This document shows, piece after piece, positions 1 through 32,685 of a DNA stretch of 32,685 nt. The translations under genes were made by a program, and so were the position numbers. Below the pieces are notes generated by a model that was given only the letters and a program-made list of their open reading frames with translations, had not been told where the DNA came from and ran no database searches. The stretch's first letter is position 1; every line of letters starts with the position of its first letter. Source of the DNA: a virus; the IMG/VR virus record IMGVR_UViG_3300007516_000004, positions 1 through 32,685 of that record; one strand, given 5' to 3'.

Positions 1-123
1 GCTTTTTCCCAAAATTTTGTAACTCGTCCATCCCTTGTTTTTTGTACGCACTCTAAATATAAAGCCTCCCAAATAAAAGGATGTGAACGGTCTTTTCTAT
101 GTATGGTTACAATAGCTTTTAAA
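1..123. repeat. Terminal direct repeat, copy 1 (identical to 32563..32685)
   Basis: Read base by base: 1..123 (gctttttcccaaaattttgt...caatagcttttaaa) recurs exactly at 32563..32685. It lies inside the recT reading frame, so it is most simply the overlap of a circular or circularly permuted assembly. Confidence 0.95.
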
Positions 124-1175: not shown

Positions 1176-1198
1176 AGCGGAGTGATTTTCACTTCGCT
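1176..1198 (+). terminator. Hairpin plus T-run, best oriented as a plus-strand intrinsic terminator (lies in the P1 leader)
   Basis: agcggagtga (1176..1185) / tcacttcgct (1189..1198): 10 bp with one G.U on the plus-strand RNA (C.A mismatch on the minus RNA), 3-nt loop, followed on the plus strand by ttttttcttt. The minus-strand downstream sequence is not U-rich. Confidence 0.45.
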
Positions 1199-1210: not shown

Positions 1211-1242
1211 CAAATGTAGTGTTTTAGGTTTGAAACTGCAAA
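1211..1242 (-). promoter_or_regulatory. Promoter P1 (Bacteroidota -33/-7 type, with the AGTTTCAAA block)
   Basis: Minus strand: TTTG(1242..1239)-cagtttcaaacctaaaacac-TACATTTG(1218..1211), 20-nt spacer, 66 nt upstream of the ATG at 1144. Confidence 0.7.
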
Positions 1243-1253
1243 GTTTATTTTAA

Positions 1254-1400
1254 TTATTGTTTAATAAATTTAATTCCATCAATTAATACCATTTCAAGTT
1301 TACCAGCTTTAATCTGATTATAAACCCATGTAGTACTTTTGTTGTGTTGCGTTGCGTAGGTGCTTACCTTTATCAACTGTGTTTGTTTTTCTTTTGCCAT
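1254..1400 (-). CDS. Small helix-turn-helix DNA-binding protein (48 aa, excisionase/MerR-like HTH fold)
   Basis: Below the track cutoff. MAKEKQTQLIKVSTYATQHNKSTTWVYNQIKAGKLEMVLIDGIKFIKQ. The pattern (V..A......T.Y..IK.GKL......G...I) is typical of HTH_17/Xis-type domains. The stop is 12 nt upstream of the P1 -33 box. Confidence 0.55.
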   Translation of the reverse strand: MAKEKQTQLIKVSTYATQHNKSTTWVYNQIKAGKLEMVLIDGIKFIKQ

Positions 1401-1405
1401 TTTTT

Positions 1406-1576
1406 TTAGTTTGTTAAAATAATTATTTCTTCTACTCTTTCCTTTACTTTATAGTAATAGTTTTCGCTGTAACTTATGGTTGTGTGTATTTTATCAAAAC
1501 ATACCATATCTACAATATTTTCTGCATTAACAGTAACCTTGTCACCGTTTTCTAATGTTAGTTCTATAAATTTCAT
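1406..1576 (-). CDS. Hypothetical early protein (56 aa)
   Basis: Below the track cutoff. The ATG at 1576 is 22 nt downstream of the P2 -7 box. MKFIELTLENGDKVTVNAENIVDMVCFDKIHTTISYSENYYYKVKERVEEIIILTN. Confidence 0.45.
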   Translation of the reverse strand: MKFIELTLENGDKVTVNAENIVDMVCFDKIHTTISYSENYYYKVKERVEEIIILTN

Positions 1577-1598
1577 TGTCTTAATATTAAAGTGTTCC

Positions 1599-1629
1599 CA
1601 AAGATAACATTAATGTTTGAAACTACAAA
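1599..1629 (-). promoter_or_regulatory. Promoter P2 (Bacteroidota -33/-7 type, with the AGTTTCAAA block)
   Basis: Minus strand: TTTG(1629..1626)-tagtttcaaacattaatgt-TATCTTTG(1606..1599), 19-nt spacer. 42/46 identical to the P4 region. Confidence 0.75.
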
Positions 1630-1644
1630 CTTTATTTTAAAATA

Positions 1645-1670
1645 AATAAAAAAACCCCGAATTAACGAGG
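1645..1670 (-). terminator. Intrinsic terminator ending the late/lysis operon
   Basis: Minus RNA: CCUCG-UUAAUU-CGGGG (5 bp including one G.U) followed by UUUUUUUAUUUAUUUU, 29 nt after the stop of 1699..2259. Confidence 0.55.
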
Positions 1671-1698
1671 TTTAAAATTAAATAATGTTTTGTAATCC

Positions 1699-11102: not shown

Positions 11103-11139
11103 CACAAAAAAAACCACATACAAAATAATGCATGTGGTT
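11103..11139 (-). terminator. Intrinsic terminator closing the moron
   Basis: Minus RNA: AACCACAU (rc of 11132..11139) - 12-nt loop - AUGUGGUU (rc of 11112..11119) followed by UUUUUUUG. 21 nt after the stop of 11160..11354. Confidence 0.65.
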
Positions 11140-11159
11140 TAGAATATTAAGGTGTGTTT

Positions 11160-11354
11160 TTATTTTATTTTTAAAAATTGAATTTCTTTGCCGTTATCCA
11201 TTTGTTTATTGTAATCTAATTCAACACGCAAAGAGTTTAATATTTTACCTGCACTATTAGACAACTCTTTTGATAGATTTATAGTCATCTTTTTTTCTTT
11301 TGTTTTTTGATAGTTATCTAATAAGCTATCTCTTAGTTCTGTAATGTTTTGCAT
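11160..11354 (-). CDS. Hypothetical moron protein (64 aa)
   Basis: Track ORF. Overlaps the upstream ORF by 22 nt. Extremely AT-rich. Confidence 0.45.
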   Translation of the reverse strand: MQNITELRDSLLDNYQKTKEKKMTINLSKELSNSAGKILNSLRVELDYNKQMDNGKEIQFLKIK

Positions 11355-11824
11355 AATCTTATTGTCTTAATAATTAATCGTTTAACTTCTATTAATTCAG
11401 GTGTGATTTGTTCTTTTTTAAAACCGTTTTTATTTAACTGAATTTTTATATATCTATCGTCTGTTTTTTGACTTGATAATATAAATTTTTGAGATATTTT
11501 TTCTTTGTTATTTTGGTAATATTTTTCAGATATTTTTTTGCAAACTTTTGGTTTTTTAACCCGGTATAATCTTTGATATTTATTTATTTTATCTGGATTA
11601 TTTTTTTGGTATTGTTTAGCATAAAATAATCTATCATTATTATTTAATGAATAATAGTTTTTTGCTTTATTAAGTATTTTTTTTTTATTATTTAAGTAAT
11701 AAATACGCTTTAATATTCTTTCGCATATTATACAATATGTGTACAAACCATCTTTGTTTTGTTTATTTTTATTAAACAAAAATACATCCTTAAGCTCTAA
11801 ACATTTTTTACATTTTTTTTCCAT
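11333..11824 (-). CDS. Zinc-ribbon, Lys/Tyr/Asn-repeat protein (163 aa); probable DNA-binding moron product
   Basis: CxxC at residues 5/8 and 31/34. Repeated YY.NNK/KYYQNNKEK-type segments. C-terminal ITPELIEVKRLIIKTIRL. No nuclease catalytic motif seen. Confidence 0.5.
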   Translation of the reverse strand: MEKKCKKCLELKDVFLFNKNKQNKDGLYTYCIICERILKRIYYLNNKKKILNKAKNYYSLNNNDRLFYAKQYQKNNPDKINKYQRLYRVKKPKVCKKISEKYYQNNKEKISQKFILSSQKTDDRYIKIQLNKNGFKKEQITPELIEVKRLIIKTIRLCKTLQN

Positions 11825-11832
11825 TTTGTCTT

Positions 11833-11892
11833 ATAAATAAAAAACCTCTTTAGGTTTCATGTGCTTTGACTCACAATCCACCAAAAGAGGTT
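11833..11892 (-). terminator. Terminator-like hairpin in the P3 leader (possible attenuator)
   Basis: aacctcttt (11843..11851) / aaagaggtt (11884..11892): 9 bp, 32-nt loop. The minus RNA continues UUUUAUUUAUAA. It lies between the P3 -7 box (11938) and the ATG at 11824. Confidence 0.45.
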
Positions 11893-11937
11893 CTTTTAAA
11901 TTTTGTTTATGGCTTGATGTCAAAGTCAACCAATAAT

Positions 11938-11968
11938 CAAATATAAGATTTAACTTTGAAACTACAAA
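11938..11968 (-). promoter_or_regulatory. Promoter P3 (Bacteroidota -33/-7 type, with the AGTTTCAAA block)
   Basis: Minus strand: TTTG(11968..11965)-tagtttcaaagttaaatct-TATATTTG(11945..11938), 19-nt spacer. Confidence 0.7.
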
Positions 11969-11974
11969 ACAAAT

Positions 11975-12112
11975 CTACTTTTTATTAAAGTACTGAAACA
12001 ATACGTCCGATATTAATTCACTAATCGAGCATTCTTTTTTTTTGGCTTCATTTCGTAACTTCAAAACAAGCCACATTCTAGGGTAAGTAACCAATCTATT
12101 AGTTTTTGGCAT
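11975..12112 (-). CDS. Ribbon-helix-helix (CopG/Arc-like) small protein (45 aa)
   Basis: Below the track cutoff. The ATG overlaps the tape-measure stop (TAATG). MPKTNRLVTYPRMWLVLKLRNEAKKKECSISELISDVLFQYFNKK shows a beta-strand (RLVTYP), helix, turn, and SISELI...L..Y helix pattern. The stop is 7 nt from the P3 -33 box. Confidence 0.5.
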   Translation of the reverse strand: MPKTNRLVTYPRMWLVLKLRNEAKKKECSISELISDVLFQYFNKK

Positions 12113-21419: not shown

Positions 21420-21450
21420 CAAAAATACAAATTATCGTTTATAAAACAAA
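21420..21450 (-). promoter_or_regulatory. Promoter P5 (consensus -33/-7, without the AGTTTCAAA block), directly upstream of terS
   Basis: Minus strand: TTTG(21450..21447)-ttttataaacgataatttg-TATTTTTG(21427..21420), 19-nt spacer. Only 5 nt separate the -7 box from the ATG at 21414. Confidence 0.55.
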
Positions 21451-30435: not shown

Positions 30436-30450
30436 CTTTTTAATTTGTCT

Positions 30451-30507
30451 ATAAAAAAGTAAATCCTGAACAGGTCAGCGGTAGTAGTCGCCTCCCCATT
30501 CAGGATT
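30451..30507 (-). terminator. Terminator-like long-loop hairpin in the P4 leader (possible attenuator)
   Basis: aatcctgaa (30462..30470) / ttcaggatt (30499..30507): 9 bp, 28-nt loop. The minus RNA continues UACUUUUUUAU. It lies between the 42-codon ORF and the SNF2 ATG (30435). Confidence 0.45.
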
Positions 30508-30563
30508 GTTAAAATTTGATTATTACCGCTACTACTCGGTTTTTTTAATACGCTGATAATATA

Positions 30564-30692
30564 TCAAACTAAAATTACATTACCGTTTTTAAACGTATAA
30601 ATATTACCTGAAATTTCACTTGGATAAACTTTTTTACCTTTAAGAAAGAAGTTAATTTTGTTTAGGTTTTTGTCTCTTATTACTACTATCAT
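30564..30692 (-). CDS. Short leader ORF (42 aa), hypothetical
   Basis: Below the track cutoff. The ATG at 30692 is 24 nt after the P4 -7 box. MIVVIRDKNLNKINFFLKGKKVYPSEISGNIYTFKNGNVILV. Confidence 0.35.
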   Translation of the reverse strand: MIVVIRDKNLNKINFFLKGKKVYPSEISGNIYTFKNGNVILV

Positions 30693-30716: not shown

Positions 30717-30747
30717 CAAAGATAACATTATAGTTTGAAACTGCAAA
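30717..30747 (-). promoter_or_regulatory. Promoter P4 (Bacteroidota -33/-7 type, with the AGTTTCAAA block)
   Basis: Minus strand: TTTG(30747..30744)-cagtttcaaactataatgt-TATCTTTG(30724..30717), 19-nt spacer. 42/46 identical to the P2 region. Confidence 0.75.
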
Positions 30748-32263: not shown

Positions 32264-32685
32264 TATTAGTTTCCCTTTCTAAAATTTCATTTTGTGAATG
32301 ATTAAAAGAAAACTTTGCTTTTGATTTTTCTAAAACTTCTAAATCTCCAGCTTTTATTTTTTCTACTAATTGACCAAACATTTTTATAGGCATTTCGGGG
32401 AGTATAATTTCAACCTCTTTAACTTCTTCGTGTGTTGTGTCCTCGATAATAGATTCTAATTCATTTGGCATTTCATCAGACGTGTAAGGCATTCCAGCAA
32501 GTTCATCTGAAAAACACAACCTAAAACCCTGTGAAATTGCGACTTTTTTAGTCATAAAGGATGCTTTTTCCCAAAATTTTGTAACTCGTCCATCCCTTGT
32601 TTTTTGTACGCACTCTAAATATAAAGCCTCCCAAATAAAAGGATGTGAACGGTCTTTTCTATGTATGGTTACAATAGCTTTTAAA
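32256..32685 (-). CDS. recT: RecT-family protein, C-terminal part (the frame stays open to the window end; 32563..32685 duplicates 1..123)
   Basis: The track ORF 32256..32555 starts at an internal Met. Upstream codons (TTT TCC GCA ...) continue without a stop through the repeat and are in frame with 416..1. Confidence 0.85.
   Translation of the reverse strand, partial: LKAIVTIHRKDRSHPFIWEALYLECVQKTRDGRVTKFWEKASFMTKKVAISQGFRLCFSDELAGMPYTSDEMPNELESIIEDTTHEEVKEVEIILPEMPIKMFGQLVEKIKAGDLEVLEKSKAKFSFNHSQNEILERETNNV
32563..32685. repeat. Terminal direct repeat, copy 2 (identical to 1..123)
   Basis: See copy 1. Confidence 0.95.

What the first reader, a model, noticed from the sequence alone, without database searches (positions are those of the whole stretch)
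1211..1629. Four promoters share an invariant 14-nt block TTTGYAGTTTCAAA on top of the Bacteroidota -33/-7 consensus
The four promoters, read on the coding strand:
- P1 (1242..1211): TTTG-cagtttcaaacctaaaacac-TACATTTG
- P2 (1629..1599): TTTG-tagtttcaaacattaatgt-TATCTTTG
- P3 (11968..11938): TTTG-tagtttcaaagttaaatct-TATATTTG
- P4 (30747..30717): TTTG-cagtttcaaactataatgt-TATCTTTG

All four fit the known Bacteroides/Flavobacterium primary-sigma consensus (-33 TTTG, about 19 nt, -7 TAnnTTTG). That consensus does not specify the spacer, yet the first 10 spacer bases (YAGTTTCAAA) are invariant in 4/4. The block forms a partial palindrome, GTTTG-N6-CAAAC, with 5-bp arms in P2 and P4 and 4-bp arms in P1 and P3. 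A fifth consensus promoter (P5, 21450..21420) lacks the block, so the block is not needed for promoter identity. It is therefore a candidate operator or a phage-specific promoter-class signature. All four sit at module boundaries.
Basis: partly seen in the sequence, partly recalled or inferred. Interest (0 to 1): 0.7.

Follow-up and report, generated by a model that had tools for sequence, protein, structure and literature searches.

The report
Host-type strong promoters reused by phage
The four phage promoters really do share an exact 14-base block, but the same block sits at the same promoter position in over a hundred Bacteroidota genomes, mostly before tRNA, rRNA and ribosomal-protein genes, so the phage is copying the host's strongest promoter type rather than carrying its own operator.

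Summary
Observation confirmed. TTTGYAGTTTCAAA occurs exactly 4 times (0.02 expected by chance). All copies are intergenic, on the coding strand, and 9-10 nt upstream of a TAnnTTTG -7 box.

The interpretation as an operator or phage-specific signature is not supported. Of the 80 genome titles shown, 73 name Bacteroidota taxa. Two composition-matched scrambled blocks gave 9 hits each, none at the 19-nt spacing.

Among the host hits, 42 of 120 lie directly upstream of a tRNA gene. Others precede 16S rRNA operons, SRP RNA, and genes for ribosomal proteins L21, L19, S16 and S12, IF3 and HU.

In an unbiased sample of 122 TTTG-N19-TACCTTTGCA promoters, the block matches or nearly matches the commonest base at each spacer position. 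Near-exact copies are over-represented and enriched before tRNAs.

Within the phage lineage the block sits in a homologous promoter cassette (AAAATAAAG + block) at mosaic junctions, gained or lost between close relatives.

Best reading: these are host sigma-A promoters carrying an undescribed, phylum-wide extended -33 element. Interest is moderate, and lies more in the host element than in the phage.

The parts
1211..1242 (-). P1: block TTTGCAGTTTCAAA (1242..1229), 10 nt, then -7 box TACATTTG (1218..1211). The TTTG-to-TA spacer is 20 nt. It lies upstream of ORF 896-1144.
   Evidence: An orthologous P1-like promoter with the same 20-nt spacer is present in relative L463 and absent in L084/L464.
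1599..1629 (-). P2: block TTTGTAGTTTCAAA (1629..1616), 9 nt, then -7 box TATCTTTG (1606..1599). It lies upstream of the 56-aa ORF 1406-1576 and the 47-aa ORF 1260-1400.
   Evidence: A P2-like promoter with the same terminator tail is present in relative L084/L464.
11938..11968 (-). P3: block TTTGTAGTTTCAAA (11968..11955), 9 nt, then -7 box TATATTTG (11945..11938). It drives a structured leader and the endonuclease-like ORF 11333-11824.
   Evidence: It lies in a roughly 900-bp segment that is absent from relative L467.
30717..30747 (-). P4: block TTTGCAGTTTCAAA (30747..30734), 9 nt, then -7 box TATCTTTG (30724..30717). It lies upstream of a 42-aa ORF and the SNF2 helicase and replication module.
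   Evidence: It is not present upstream of the helicase in the 80 best helicase relatives.
21420..21450 (-). P5: a consensus TTTG-N19-TATTTTTG site without the block, 5 nt before the small-terminase start codon.
1652..1673 (-). Intrinsic-terminator-like hairpin plus T-run ending the lysis module, immediately upstream of P2. This terminator-tail-plus-promoter cassette is shared with L084 and with L463 position 1033.
1176..1198 (-). Hairpin in the P1 leader, conserved in L084 and L463. Its T-run is on the + strand.
   Evidence: z -3.5
11839..11896 (-). Long hairpin followed by a U-run inside the 108-nt P3 leader. The order is promoter, then terminator-like structure, then gene.
   Evidence: dG -27.5 kcal/mol, z -3.4
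30462..30507 (-). Hairpin plus U-run between the 42-aa ORF downstream of P4 and the helicase gene.
   Evidence: dG -33.3 kcal/mol, z -4.8
11975..12112 (-). 45-aa ORF resembling a ribbon-helix-helix protein. It ends 7 nt before the P3 block.
   Evidence: Weak PHROG 'transcriptional regulator' hit (E 0.0035) and no Pfam hit. It is conserved in relatives L466, L467 and L470. The RHH assignment was made by eye.
1260..1400 (-). 47-aa ORF between P2 and P1 (MAKEKQTQLIKVSTYATQHNKSTTWVYNQIKAGKLEMVLIDGIKFIKQ). It looks like an excisionase or MerR-type helix-turn-helix protein.
   Evidence: Sequence. No Pfam or PHROG hit. It is conserved in L084. The HTH assignment was made by eye only.
11333..11824 (-). 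163-aa endonuclease-like ORF driven by P3 (PHROG endonuclease / endonuclease VII). It is probably a mobile gene.

Best explanation
The four sites are promoters read by the host's primary sigma factor (Bacteroidota sigma-A). They are copies of one homologous promoter cassette.

The invariant block is not a phage invention. TTTG followed by YAGTTTCAAA, placed 19 nt from TAnnTTTG, matches or nearly matches the commonest base at each position of the -33-proximal spacer in Bacteroidota promoters. The exact block occurs across the phylum, mainly at the most heavily used housekeeping promoters: tRNA, rRNA, SRP RNA, ribosomal proteins, IF3 and HU.

The phage therefore carries four copies of the host's top-class promoter. 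These would recruit host RNA polymerase efficiently with no phage factor, in front of three units. P2 and P1 precede the early and recombination genes, P4 precedes the replication module, and P3 precedes an inserted endonuclease cassette.

What is shown: the sequence, the spacing, the phylum-wide recurrence, the link to stable-RNA and translation genes, and the cassette homology and mosaic distribution.

What is inferred: that transcription starts about 5 nt after each -7 box; that the block raises promoter strength; and that it does so through direct contact with, or DNA shape read by, the sigma-A holoenzyme (an 'extended -33 element') rather than through a separate factor.
For: Recurrence elsewhere:
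Of the 80 titles shown, 73 name Bacteroidota taxa including Prevotella, Bacteroides, Muribaculaceae, Alistipes, Bergeyella, Riemerella, Cloacibacterium, Capnocytophaga, Chitinophaga and Cyclobacteriaceae.

Controls:
- Two composition-matched control blocks gave 9 stretches each in the whole viral collection. None had the 19-nt spacing, and the contexts look like coding sequence.
- Real hits use the 19-nt spacing in 96 of 115 distinct host cases and 26 of 30 distinct viral cases.

What the host copies drive:
- 42 of 120 host hits are followed within about 60 nt by a tRNA gene, of many anticodons.
- Others precede 16S rRNA operons, Bacteroidales SRP RNA, and cobalamin and SAM riboswitches.
- Others precede ribosomal proteins L21, L19, S16 and S12, IF3 and HU.

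Unbiased sample of 122 TTTG-N19-TACCTTTGCA promoters from metagenomes:
- The commonest bases at the first ten spacer positions are C, A, A/G, A/T, T, T, C, A, A, A, followed by an A-run.
- 18 of 122 lie within 3 mismatches of the block, against a mean of 1.5 for 2000 scrambled blocks.
- 6 sites have 0-1 mismatch, against 0.84 expected if columns were independent.
- A tRNA gene follows 9 of 18 near-block promoters against 18 of 104 others (Fisher p = 0.0045).

Phage lineage:
- Seven block promoters in three related genomes keep all 14 positions, while both flanks vary.
- Sites are present or absent at orthologous positions.
Against: - There are no transcription-start or expression data for this phage or its unknown host.
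- Sequence alone cannot separate direct holoenzyme recognition from a conserved host factor binding at -31..-22.
- Exact blocks are rare among host promoters: 1 of 122 in the unbiased sample. Six tRNA promoters in the fetched loci that were not selected for the block lacked it. It is therefore not required for strong promoters.
- Both collection scans were capped, so true frequencies are unknown.
- The four phage copies are homologous, so part of their identity reflects common descent.
- The closest cultured relatives by large terminase (Flavobacterium psychrophilum phages, 53% aa) do not use the block; FpV9 was the one checked.
Confidence: 0.65

Rival explanations
1. The block is the binding site of a conserved host transcription factor or nucleoid protein that co-regulates the translation apparatus (tRNA, rRNA, ribosomal proteins). 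It overlaps the -33 region, and the phage promoters plug into that regulon.
For: - The block behaves as a unit: there is an excess of 0-1 mismatch copies over the expectation for independent columns.
- It is enriched at a functionally coherent gene set.
- It shows a TTTG-N6-CAAA dyad.
Against: - The block includes the sigma-contacted TTTG itself and keeps a strict 19-nt distance to the -7 box. That is what a core-promoter element would do.
- The dyad is only 4 bp per arm, and the flanks do not extend it beyond A/T richness.
- No candidate factor was identified.
Confidence: 0.2
2. The block is an operator for a phage HTH or RHH regulator, or the signature of a phage-specific promoter class that sets the timing of four transcription units.
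For: - The block is a partial palindrome.
- A small RHH-like ORF ends 7 nt before P3, and a small HTH-like ORF lies between P2 and P1.
- P5 lacks the block.
Against: - The identical 14-mer sits at the same promoter position in over 100 bacterial genome stretches and in unrelated viral contigs. In the bacteria it precedes tRNA, rRNA and ribosomal-protein genes.
- The -33 and -7 boxes are of the host type.
- No phage sigma factor or RNA polymerase turned up among the proteins scanned.
- The RHH-like ORF is conserved in relatives that have no block promoter next to it.
Confidence: 0.1
3. Beyond being promoters, the repeated cassettes (terminator tail + AAAATAAAG + block + -7 box) act as short homology patches. 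Recombination at these patches shuffles modules between related phages, as described for the promoter-stem-loop cassettes of T4-type phages.
For: - Cassettes lie at junctions that differ between close relatives. P1 is present in the window and in L463 but absent in L084/L464. The 56-aa ORF is inserted after P2 only in the window. P3 comes with a roughly 900-bp endonuclease insertion.
- L463 position 1033 combines the upstream part of P2 with the downstream part of P4.
Against: - Only three related genomes carry the cassette in the data fetched.
- No recombination breakpoints were mapped.
- Mobile genes often carry their own promoters without the promoter taking part in recombination.
Confidence: 0.25
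4. The block has no function of its own. The four promoters are recent duplicates, and the 10 spacer bases are identical only by descent.
For: The four sites and their counterparts in relatives are clearly homologous beyond the block.
Against: - Within the same alignment the 9-10 nt after the block and the 9 nt before it vary at most columns, while the 14-mer has no change other than C/T at one position, in 7 copies.
- The same block recurs at unrelated host promoters.
Confidence: 0.05

Closest known systems
Bacteroidota primary-sigma (sigma-A / sigma-ABfr) promoter: -33 TTTG, about 19 nt, -7 TAnnTTTG (Bayley 2000, Vingadassalom 2005 and Chen 2007, as cited in PMC7366714 and PMC9723704)
   Same: Same -33 and -7 boxes, same spacing, and intergenic position in the same orientation as the genes. 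The host copies of the block are ordinary chromosomal promoters of this type.
   Different: The published descriptions I could read call the spacer 'AT-rich ... of variable length' (PMC7366714) or give only -7 variants (PMC9723704). They do not mention YAGTTTCAAA or its link to tRNA, rRNA and ribosomal-protein genes.
E. coli stable-RNA promoters (rrn and tRNA promoters with near-consensus hexamers, UP elements and functional spacer sequence); from general knowledge
   Same: This is a subclass of housekeeping-sigma promoters with extra conserved sequence and phased upstream A/T tracts, concentrated at translation-apparatus genes.
   Different: The sigma factor, the consensus and the position of the extra element differ. 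Here the element lies inside the spacer at about -31..-22, not upstream of -35. No biochemical data exist for it.
Strong phage-derived Bacteroides promoter P_BfP1E6 (Whitaker et al. 2017, as described in bioRxiv 10.1101/2025.03.18.644028)
   Same: It is a phage promoter read by host polymerase that outperforms native rRNA and rpoD promoters. This fits the idea that Bacteroidota phages carry optimised host-type promoters.
   Different: I could not obtain its sequence, so I do not know whether it contains the block.
Promoter-stem-loop mobile regulatory cassettes of T4-type phages (PeSLs, Arbiol et al. 2010); from memory
   Same: Repeated cassettes of an early promoter plus a hairpin, at the borders of variable genes.
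   Different: Recombination at the cassettes is not shown here. The hosts and the promoter consensus are unrelated.
Phage operators such as lambda OR/OL or P22 Arc/Mnt (RHH) operators; from general knowledge
   Same: A short, partly symmetric sequence overlapping a promoter, next to small DNA-binding-protein genes.
   Different: Operators are specific to a phage and its repressor. This sequence is shared verbatim with host housekeeping promoters across a phylum.

Membership tests
Bacteroidota sigma-A (-33/-7) promoter | -7 box TAnnTTTG | tested here: met
   The boxes are TACATTTG, TATCTTTG, TATATTTG and TATCTTTG at 1218..1211, 1606..1599, 11945..11938 and 30724..30717.
Bacteroidota sigma-A (-33/-7) promoter | -33 TTTG about 19 nt upstream of the -7 box | tested here: met
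   The spacers are 20, 19, 19 and 19 nt. Host block promoters use 19 nt in 96 of 115 distinct cases.
Bacteroidota sigma-A (-33/-7) promoter | Intergenic, in the same orientation as a gene and upstream of it | tested here: met
   All four lie in gaps of 61-150 nt on the coding strand.
Bacteroidota sigma-A (-33/-7) promoter | Transcription start about 5 nt downstream of the -7 box | not testable with these tools
   This needs 5'-end mapping. The position rule is taken from PMC9723704.
Phage operator / phage-specific promoter class | The sequence is confined to the phage and its relatives | tested here: not met
   It occurs in at least 115 distinct bacterial genome contexts and 30 distinct viral contexts of unrelated sequence.
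Phage operator / phage-specific promoter class | Dyad or direct-repeat symmetry beyond what the promoter boxes supply | tested here: inconclusive
   Only TTTG/CAAA (4 bp) is invariant. A fifth pair is present in P2 and P4 only. Host flanks add only A/T pairs.
Phage operator / phage-specific promoter class | A phage-encoded sigma factor, RNA polymerase or regulator that recognises the sequence | tested here: inconclusive
   No sigma factor or RNA polymerase family appeared among the 24 small or unknown ORFs scanned. Not every ORF was scanned, and binding cannot be tested here.
Stable-RNA-type strong promoter subclass (as in host) | The same element lies in front of tRNA, rRNA and ribosomal-protein genes of the host phylum | tested here: met
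   - 42 of 120 hits precede a tRNA gene.
- Two precede 16S rRNA operons and one precedes SRP RNA.
- Others precede L21, L19, S16, S12, IF3 and HU.
- In the unbiased sample a tRNA follows 9 of 18 near-block promoters against 18 of 104 others.
Stable-RNA-type strong promoter subclass (as in host) | Higher activity than promoters lacking the element | not testable with these tools
   No expression data are available.
Mobile promoter/stem-loop cassette (PeSL-like) | A repeated promoter-plus-hairpin unit at the borders of genes that vary between relatives | tested here: met
Mobile promoter/stem-loop cassette (PeSL-like) | Recombination breakpoints inside the cassette | tested here: inconclusive
   L463 position 1033 looks like a hybrid of the P2 upstream part and the P4 downstream part. 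Too few genomes are available to decide.

The most novel reading that the evidence does not exclude
TTTG-YAGTTTCAAA, with core TTTG-N4-TTCAAA followed by an A-run, is a discrete promoter element that has not been described before and is conserved across the classes of Bacteroidota. It would be either an extended -33 element read by the unusual sigma-A holoenzyme or the site of a conserved factor. It marks the translation-apparatus regulon (tRNA, rRNA, SRP RNA, ribosomal proteins, IF3, HU), and phages and prophages of the phylum repeatedly capture it for their own genes.
Probability: 0.3. Interest if true: 0.65.

Novelty: new variant of a known kind. Interest (0 to 1): 0.45.

Why it matters
For the phage, this makes the four sites ordinary in kind. 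They are strong host-polymerase promoters on a mobile cassette, not a new regulatory switch.

The useful by-product concerns the host phylum. Bacteroidota promoters are described as a -7 box plus a weak -33 TTTG with an unspecified spacer. A specific 10-nt continuation of the -33 box, found verbatim from Prevotella to Chitinophaga and concentrated at stable-RNA and ribosomal-protein genes, would refine that model.

It would also give a testable handle on how growth-related genes are transcribed by the unusual sigma-A. And it would offer a simple design rule for strong promoters in Bacteroides and Flavobacterium engineering.

Tried and rejected
- Megablast of the first 12 kb against GenBank phages found no match. 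The closest cultured relatives by large terminase are Flavobacterium psychrophilum phages at 53% aa. One of them, FpV9, has no block promoter.
- I looked for P4 conservation upstream of the SNF2 helicase in the 80 best of 433 relatives. None has the block.
- I looked for P3 conservation next to homologues of the tape-measure-like protein and of the endonuclease ORF. None has it.
- tRNA promoters in the fetched host loci that were not selected for the block: only 8 were usable, 6 had a -7 box, and none had the block. This is too few for a frequency estimate.
- In the genome loci, 1-2 mismatch variants at other -7 boxes were very rare. This is uninformative because each locus was ascertained by an exact hit.
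- Rfam found nothing on the window or downstream of the large repeated viral locus.
- Literature: no paper in the library contains AGTTTCAAA together with Bacteroid* and promoter. The Whitaker 2017 and Chen 2007 papers are not held. No supplement with the P_BfP1E6 sequence is held.
- Divergent-promoter idea: the reverse strand of P1 and P3 reads TAnnTTTG across the block, but P2, P4 and the host consensus do not. I rejected this.
Full report
**Observation.** The 14-mer TTTGYAGTTTCAAA occurs exactly four times in the 32,685-nt window. Dinucleotide-preserving shuffles give a mean of 0.02 matches, and none of 100 shuffles reached four. There are no one-mismatch variants, and looser matches are near chance. 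Each copy is followed after 9 nt (10 nt in P1) by a TAnnTTTG box. On the coding strand the full pattern TTTG-N19/20-TAnnTTTG occurs only five times: these four plus P5 (21450..21420), whose spacer is unrelated. All four sit in intergenic gaps and point the same way as the genes. The palindrome is as described, but only TTTG/CAAA is common to all four.

**Context.** Every sizeable ORF is on the - strand. The two ends of the window repeat 123 nt exactly, so this is a complete, circularly permuted genome of 32,562 bp. GC content is 32%. It has no close relative among deposited phages. Its large terminase is 53% identical to those of Flavobacterium psychrophilum phages.

Read along the coding strand, the layout is as follows:
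- P4 is followed by a 42-aa ORF, a hairpin, the SNF2 helicase, the methyltransferases and DnaB.
- P5 is followed by the terminase genes and part of the structural module.
- P3 is followed by an endonuclease-like ORF, then capsid, portal, fibre and lysis genes, ending at a terminator (1673..1652).
- P2 is followed by two small ORFs.
- P1 is followed by small ORFs and a RecT-like gene that runs across the window junction.

**Is the block phage-specific?** It is not. About 80 of these are one repeated locus. The remaining 37 loci, together with that repeated locus, give 30 distinct block-to-(-7) sequences, from contigs of 28-55% GC.

The same scan of one genome per bacterial and archaeal species also stopped at its limit, with 120 stretches and 115 distinct sequences. 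Of the 80 titles shown, 73 name Bacteroidota taxa. These span Bacteroidales (Prevotella, Bacteroides, Phocaeicola, Muribaculaceae, Alistipes, Paludibacteraceae), Flavobacteriales (Bergeyella, Riemerella, Cloacibacterium, Capnocytophaga), Chitinophaga and Cyclobacteriaceae. The seven exceptions fall into two groups. Some have the wrong spacing. The others are short MAG contigs whose sequence looks like a Bacteroidota phage.

**Controls.** I ran two blocks of identical composition: the reversed block and a scramble that keeps the TTT and AAA runs. Each gave only 9 stretches in the whole viral collection. None had the 19-nt spacing, and the contexts look like coding sequence. By contrast, 96 of 115 distinct host hits and 26 of 30 distinct viral hits have exactly 19 nt between TTTG and TA. 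That is the spacing expected of working promoters of this type.

**What the host copies drive.** In 42 of the 120 genome hits a tRNA gene starts within about 60 nt of the -7 box, with many different anticodons. A sample of the remaining hits includes:
- two 16S rRNA operons, at roughly 290 and 310 nt;
- the Bacteroidales SRP RNA, starting at the predicted start site;
- cobalamin and SAM riboswitch leaders;
- genes for ribosomal proteins L21, L19, S16 and S12, for IF3 and for HU.

One further hit precedes what I read by eye as ribosomal protein L3; this was not confirmed by Pfam. Around the exact block the host promoters share phased A/T tracts upstream, an A-run after the block, and an extended -7 box TAyCTTTGCA.

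**An unbiased view of the spacer.** The scans above required the block, so I also sampled promoters without constraining the spacer, using TTTG-N19-TACCTTTGCA in metagenome contigs. This gave 122 distinct sites.
- The commonest bases at the first ten spacer positions are C, A, A/G, A/T, T, T, C, A, A, A, followed by AAAAA. The phage block therefore matches or nearly matches the commonest base at each position, although each position carries only 0.1-0.4 bit.
- Eighteen of 122 sites lie within three mismatches of YAGTTTCAAA. The mean for 2000 scrambled versions is 1.5, and only 0.05% of scrambles reach 18.
- Copies with 0-1 mismatch are more frequent than independent columns predict (6 observed, 0.84 expected; P about 0.0005). 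The block therefore behaves as a unit.
- A tRNA gene follows 9 of 18 near-block promoters, against 18 of 104 others (Fisher p = 0.0045).
- Exact copies are nonetheless rare (1 of 122). Six tRNA promoters in the fetched loci that were not selected for the block lacked it. The block is therefore a feature of a subset of strong promoters, not a requirement.

**The phage lineage.** Two IMG/VR contigs are close, syntenic relatives at 60-89% aa identity.
- L084/L464 has a P2-like promoter with the same terminator tail. There it sits directly in front of the homologue of ORF 1260-1400. That genome lacks the 56-aa ORF, and it lacks P1 altogether: the stop codon runs straight into the conserved hairpin.
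- L463 has a P1-like promoter (block, 20-nt spacer, TACATTTG, the same hairpin and the same downstream gene) behind a different upstream gene. It also has a second block promoter whose upstream half matches P2 and whose downstream half matches P4.
- In the alignment of these seven promoters the 14-mer is unchanged apart from the C/T position, while most columns on both sides vary.
- None of the 80 best relatives of the helicase (80-85% aa) has a block promoter upstream of it.
- None of the 17 relatives of the tape-measure-like protein has one downstream.
- In L467 the RHH-like ORF is followed directly by the protease/scaffold gene. P3, its leader, the endonuclease-like ORF 11333-11824 (PHROG endonuclease / endonuclease VII) and ORF 11160-11354 therefore form a roughly 900-bp insertion. 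The slot they occupy holds different genes in L466 and L470.

The block promoters are thus one homologous cassette, found at mosaic junctions and gained or lost between close relatives.

**Mechanism.** The simplest account is that these are host sigma-A promoters of the best available grade. The -33 and -7 boxes and the spacing are canonical. The extra ten bases are what the host itself uses at tRNA, rRNA and ribosomal-protein promoters.

With TAnnTTTG at -12..-5 (position rule from PMC9723704), the block spans about -35..-22 and the A-run that follows in host promoters spans about -21..-17. I infer, but cannot show, that the block increases promoter strength. This could be by contact with the holoenzyme or through DNA shape, since TTTCAAA plus an A-tract should narrow and bend the helix.

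A conserved host factor binding there is the main rival. The unit-like behaviour of the block and the coherent gene set fit that idea. The inclusion of the sigma-contacted TTTG and the rigid spacing fit a core-promoter element better.

The operator idea is not needed, and it is hard to reconcile with the host distribution. A phage protein could still bind there. Weak family matches suggest small regulators next to P3 and P4. The ORF between P2 and P1 has no family hit, and I call it HTH-like only by eye.

Pure descent without function is unlikely, because the block is a conserved island between variable flanks.

A further, non-exclusive role as a recombination patch, as in the T4-type promoter-stem-loop cassettes (recalled from memory), fits the mosaic pattern but is not demonstrated.

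**Comparison with what is known.** The papers I could read describe the Bacteroidota promoter in two ways. [quoted passage not shown] The other gives variants of the -7 box only (F. psychrophilum, PMC9723704). No paper in the searchable library contains AGTTTCAAA together with Bacteroid* and promoter.

Strong phage-derived promoters are already used in Bacteroides engineering. P_BfP1E6 is stronger than the rRNA and rpoD promoters (bioRxiv 10.1101/2025.03.18.644028). I could not obtain its sequence or the original paper. Older subscription papers (Bayley 2000, Chen 2007) were also not available, so I cannot exclude prior mention of the block.

**Verdict.** The promoter assignment is well supported by sequence. 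The 'operator or phage-specific signature' reading is not supported. At the level of the phage, this is a new member or variant of a familiar thing: repeated, near-optimal host-type promoters on a mobile cassette. The more interesting result is the by-product, a discrete extension of the -33 element, conserved across the phylum and tied to stable-RNA and ribosomal genes, that I could not find described. It deserves a direct test.

**Side observations.**
- Three of the four block promoters are followed by strong hairpins before the main gene, and two of these have U-runs. P3 may therefore make a short RNA of about 95 nt or be subject to attenuation.
- Rfam recognises nothing in the window.

Noticed in passing
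window 1-123 and 32563-32685: The two ends of the window are an exact 123-nt direct repeat. The sequence is therefore a complete circular or terminally redundant genome of 32,562 bp. A RecT-like ORF runs across the junction.
   Followed up: partly
window 11826-11937 (- strand): P3 is followed by a 108-nt leader with a long hairpin (11896..11839) and a U-run before the endonuclease-like gene, so the order is promoter, terminator-like structure, gene. It could be a small RNA of about 95 nt or an attenuator. There is no Rfam match.
   Followed up: partly
window 30436-30692 (- strand): Downstream of P4 lies a 42-aa ORF with no family hit. It is followed by a very stable hairpin (30507..30462; dG -33 kcal/mol, z -4.8) plus a U-run, just before the SNF2 helicase start.
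   Followed up: partly
window 11124-11974; loci L466, L467, L470: The slot between the RHH-like ORF and the protease/scaffold gene is hypervariable among relatives. It is empty in L467 and holds different small genes in L466 and L470. In this phage it holds an endonuclease-like ORF with its own block promoter. L466 and L470 share a different conserved terminator-plus-promoter-like cassette there.
   Followed up: partly
L084 2780-2900 / L464 2118-2200: The closest syntenic relative carries a tRNA-Met-like gene immediately upstream of its terminator and P2-like block promoter. The window itself has no tRNA gene (ARAGORN).
   Followed up: no
L001-L118 (about 80 loci, e.g. L001 2279-2309): About 80 IMG/VR contigs of 80-157 kb, mostly from one sample (3300045988), share one nearly identical block promoter locus (cctgtttgTTTGTAGTTTCAAAataaggtcTTATATTTGcggtgtccatccgtt...). 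Its downstream sequence is conserved and has no Rfam match.
   Followed up: partly
L169 (contig JALFSR010000100.1, labelled Clostridiales MAG): Besides the exact-block promoter that brought it in, this 8-kb stretch has four Bacteroidota-type promoters that begin TTTGCAG and end TAYATTTGCA, with varying versions of the block. It looks like a Bacteroidota phage or prophage that was binned into the wrong genome.
   Followed up: no
window 1176-1198: The conserved hairpin in the P1 leader has its T-run on the + strand, where it scores as a terminator. No + strand genes are evident there.
   Followed up: no
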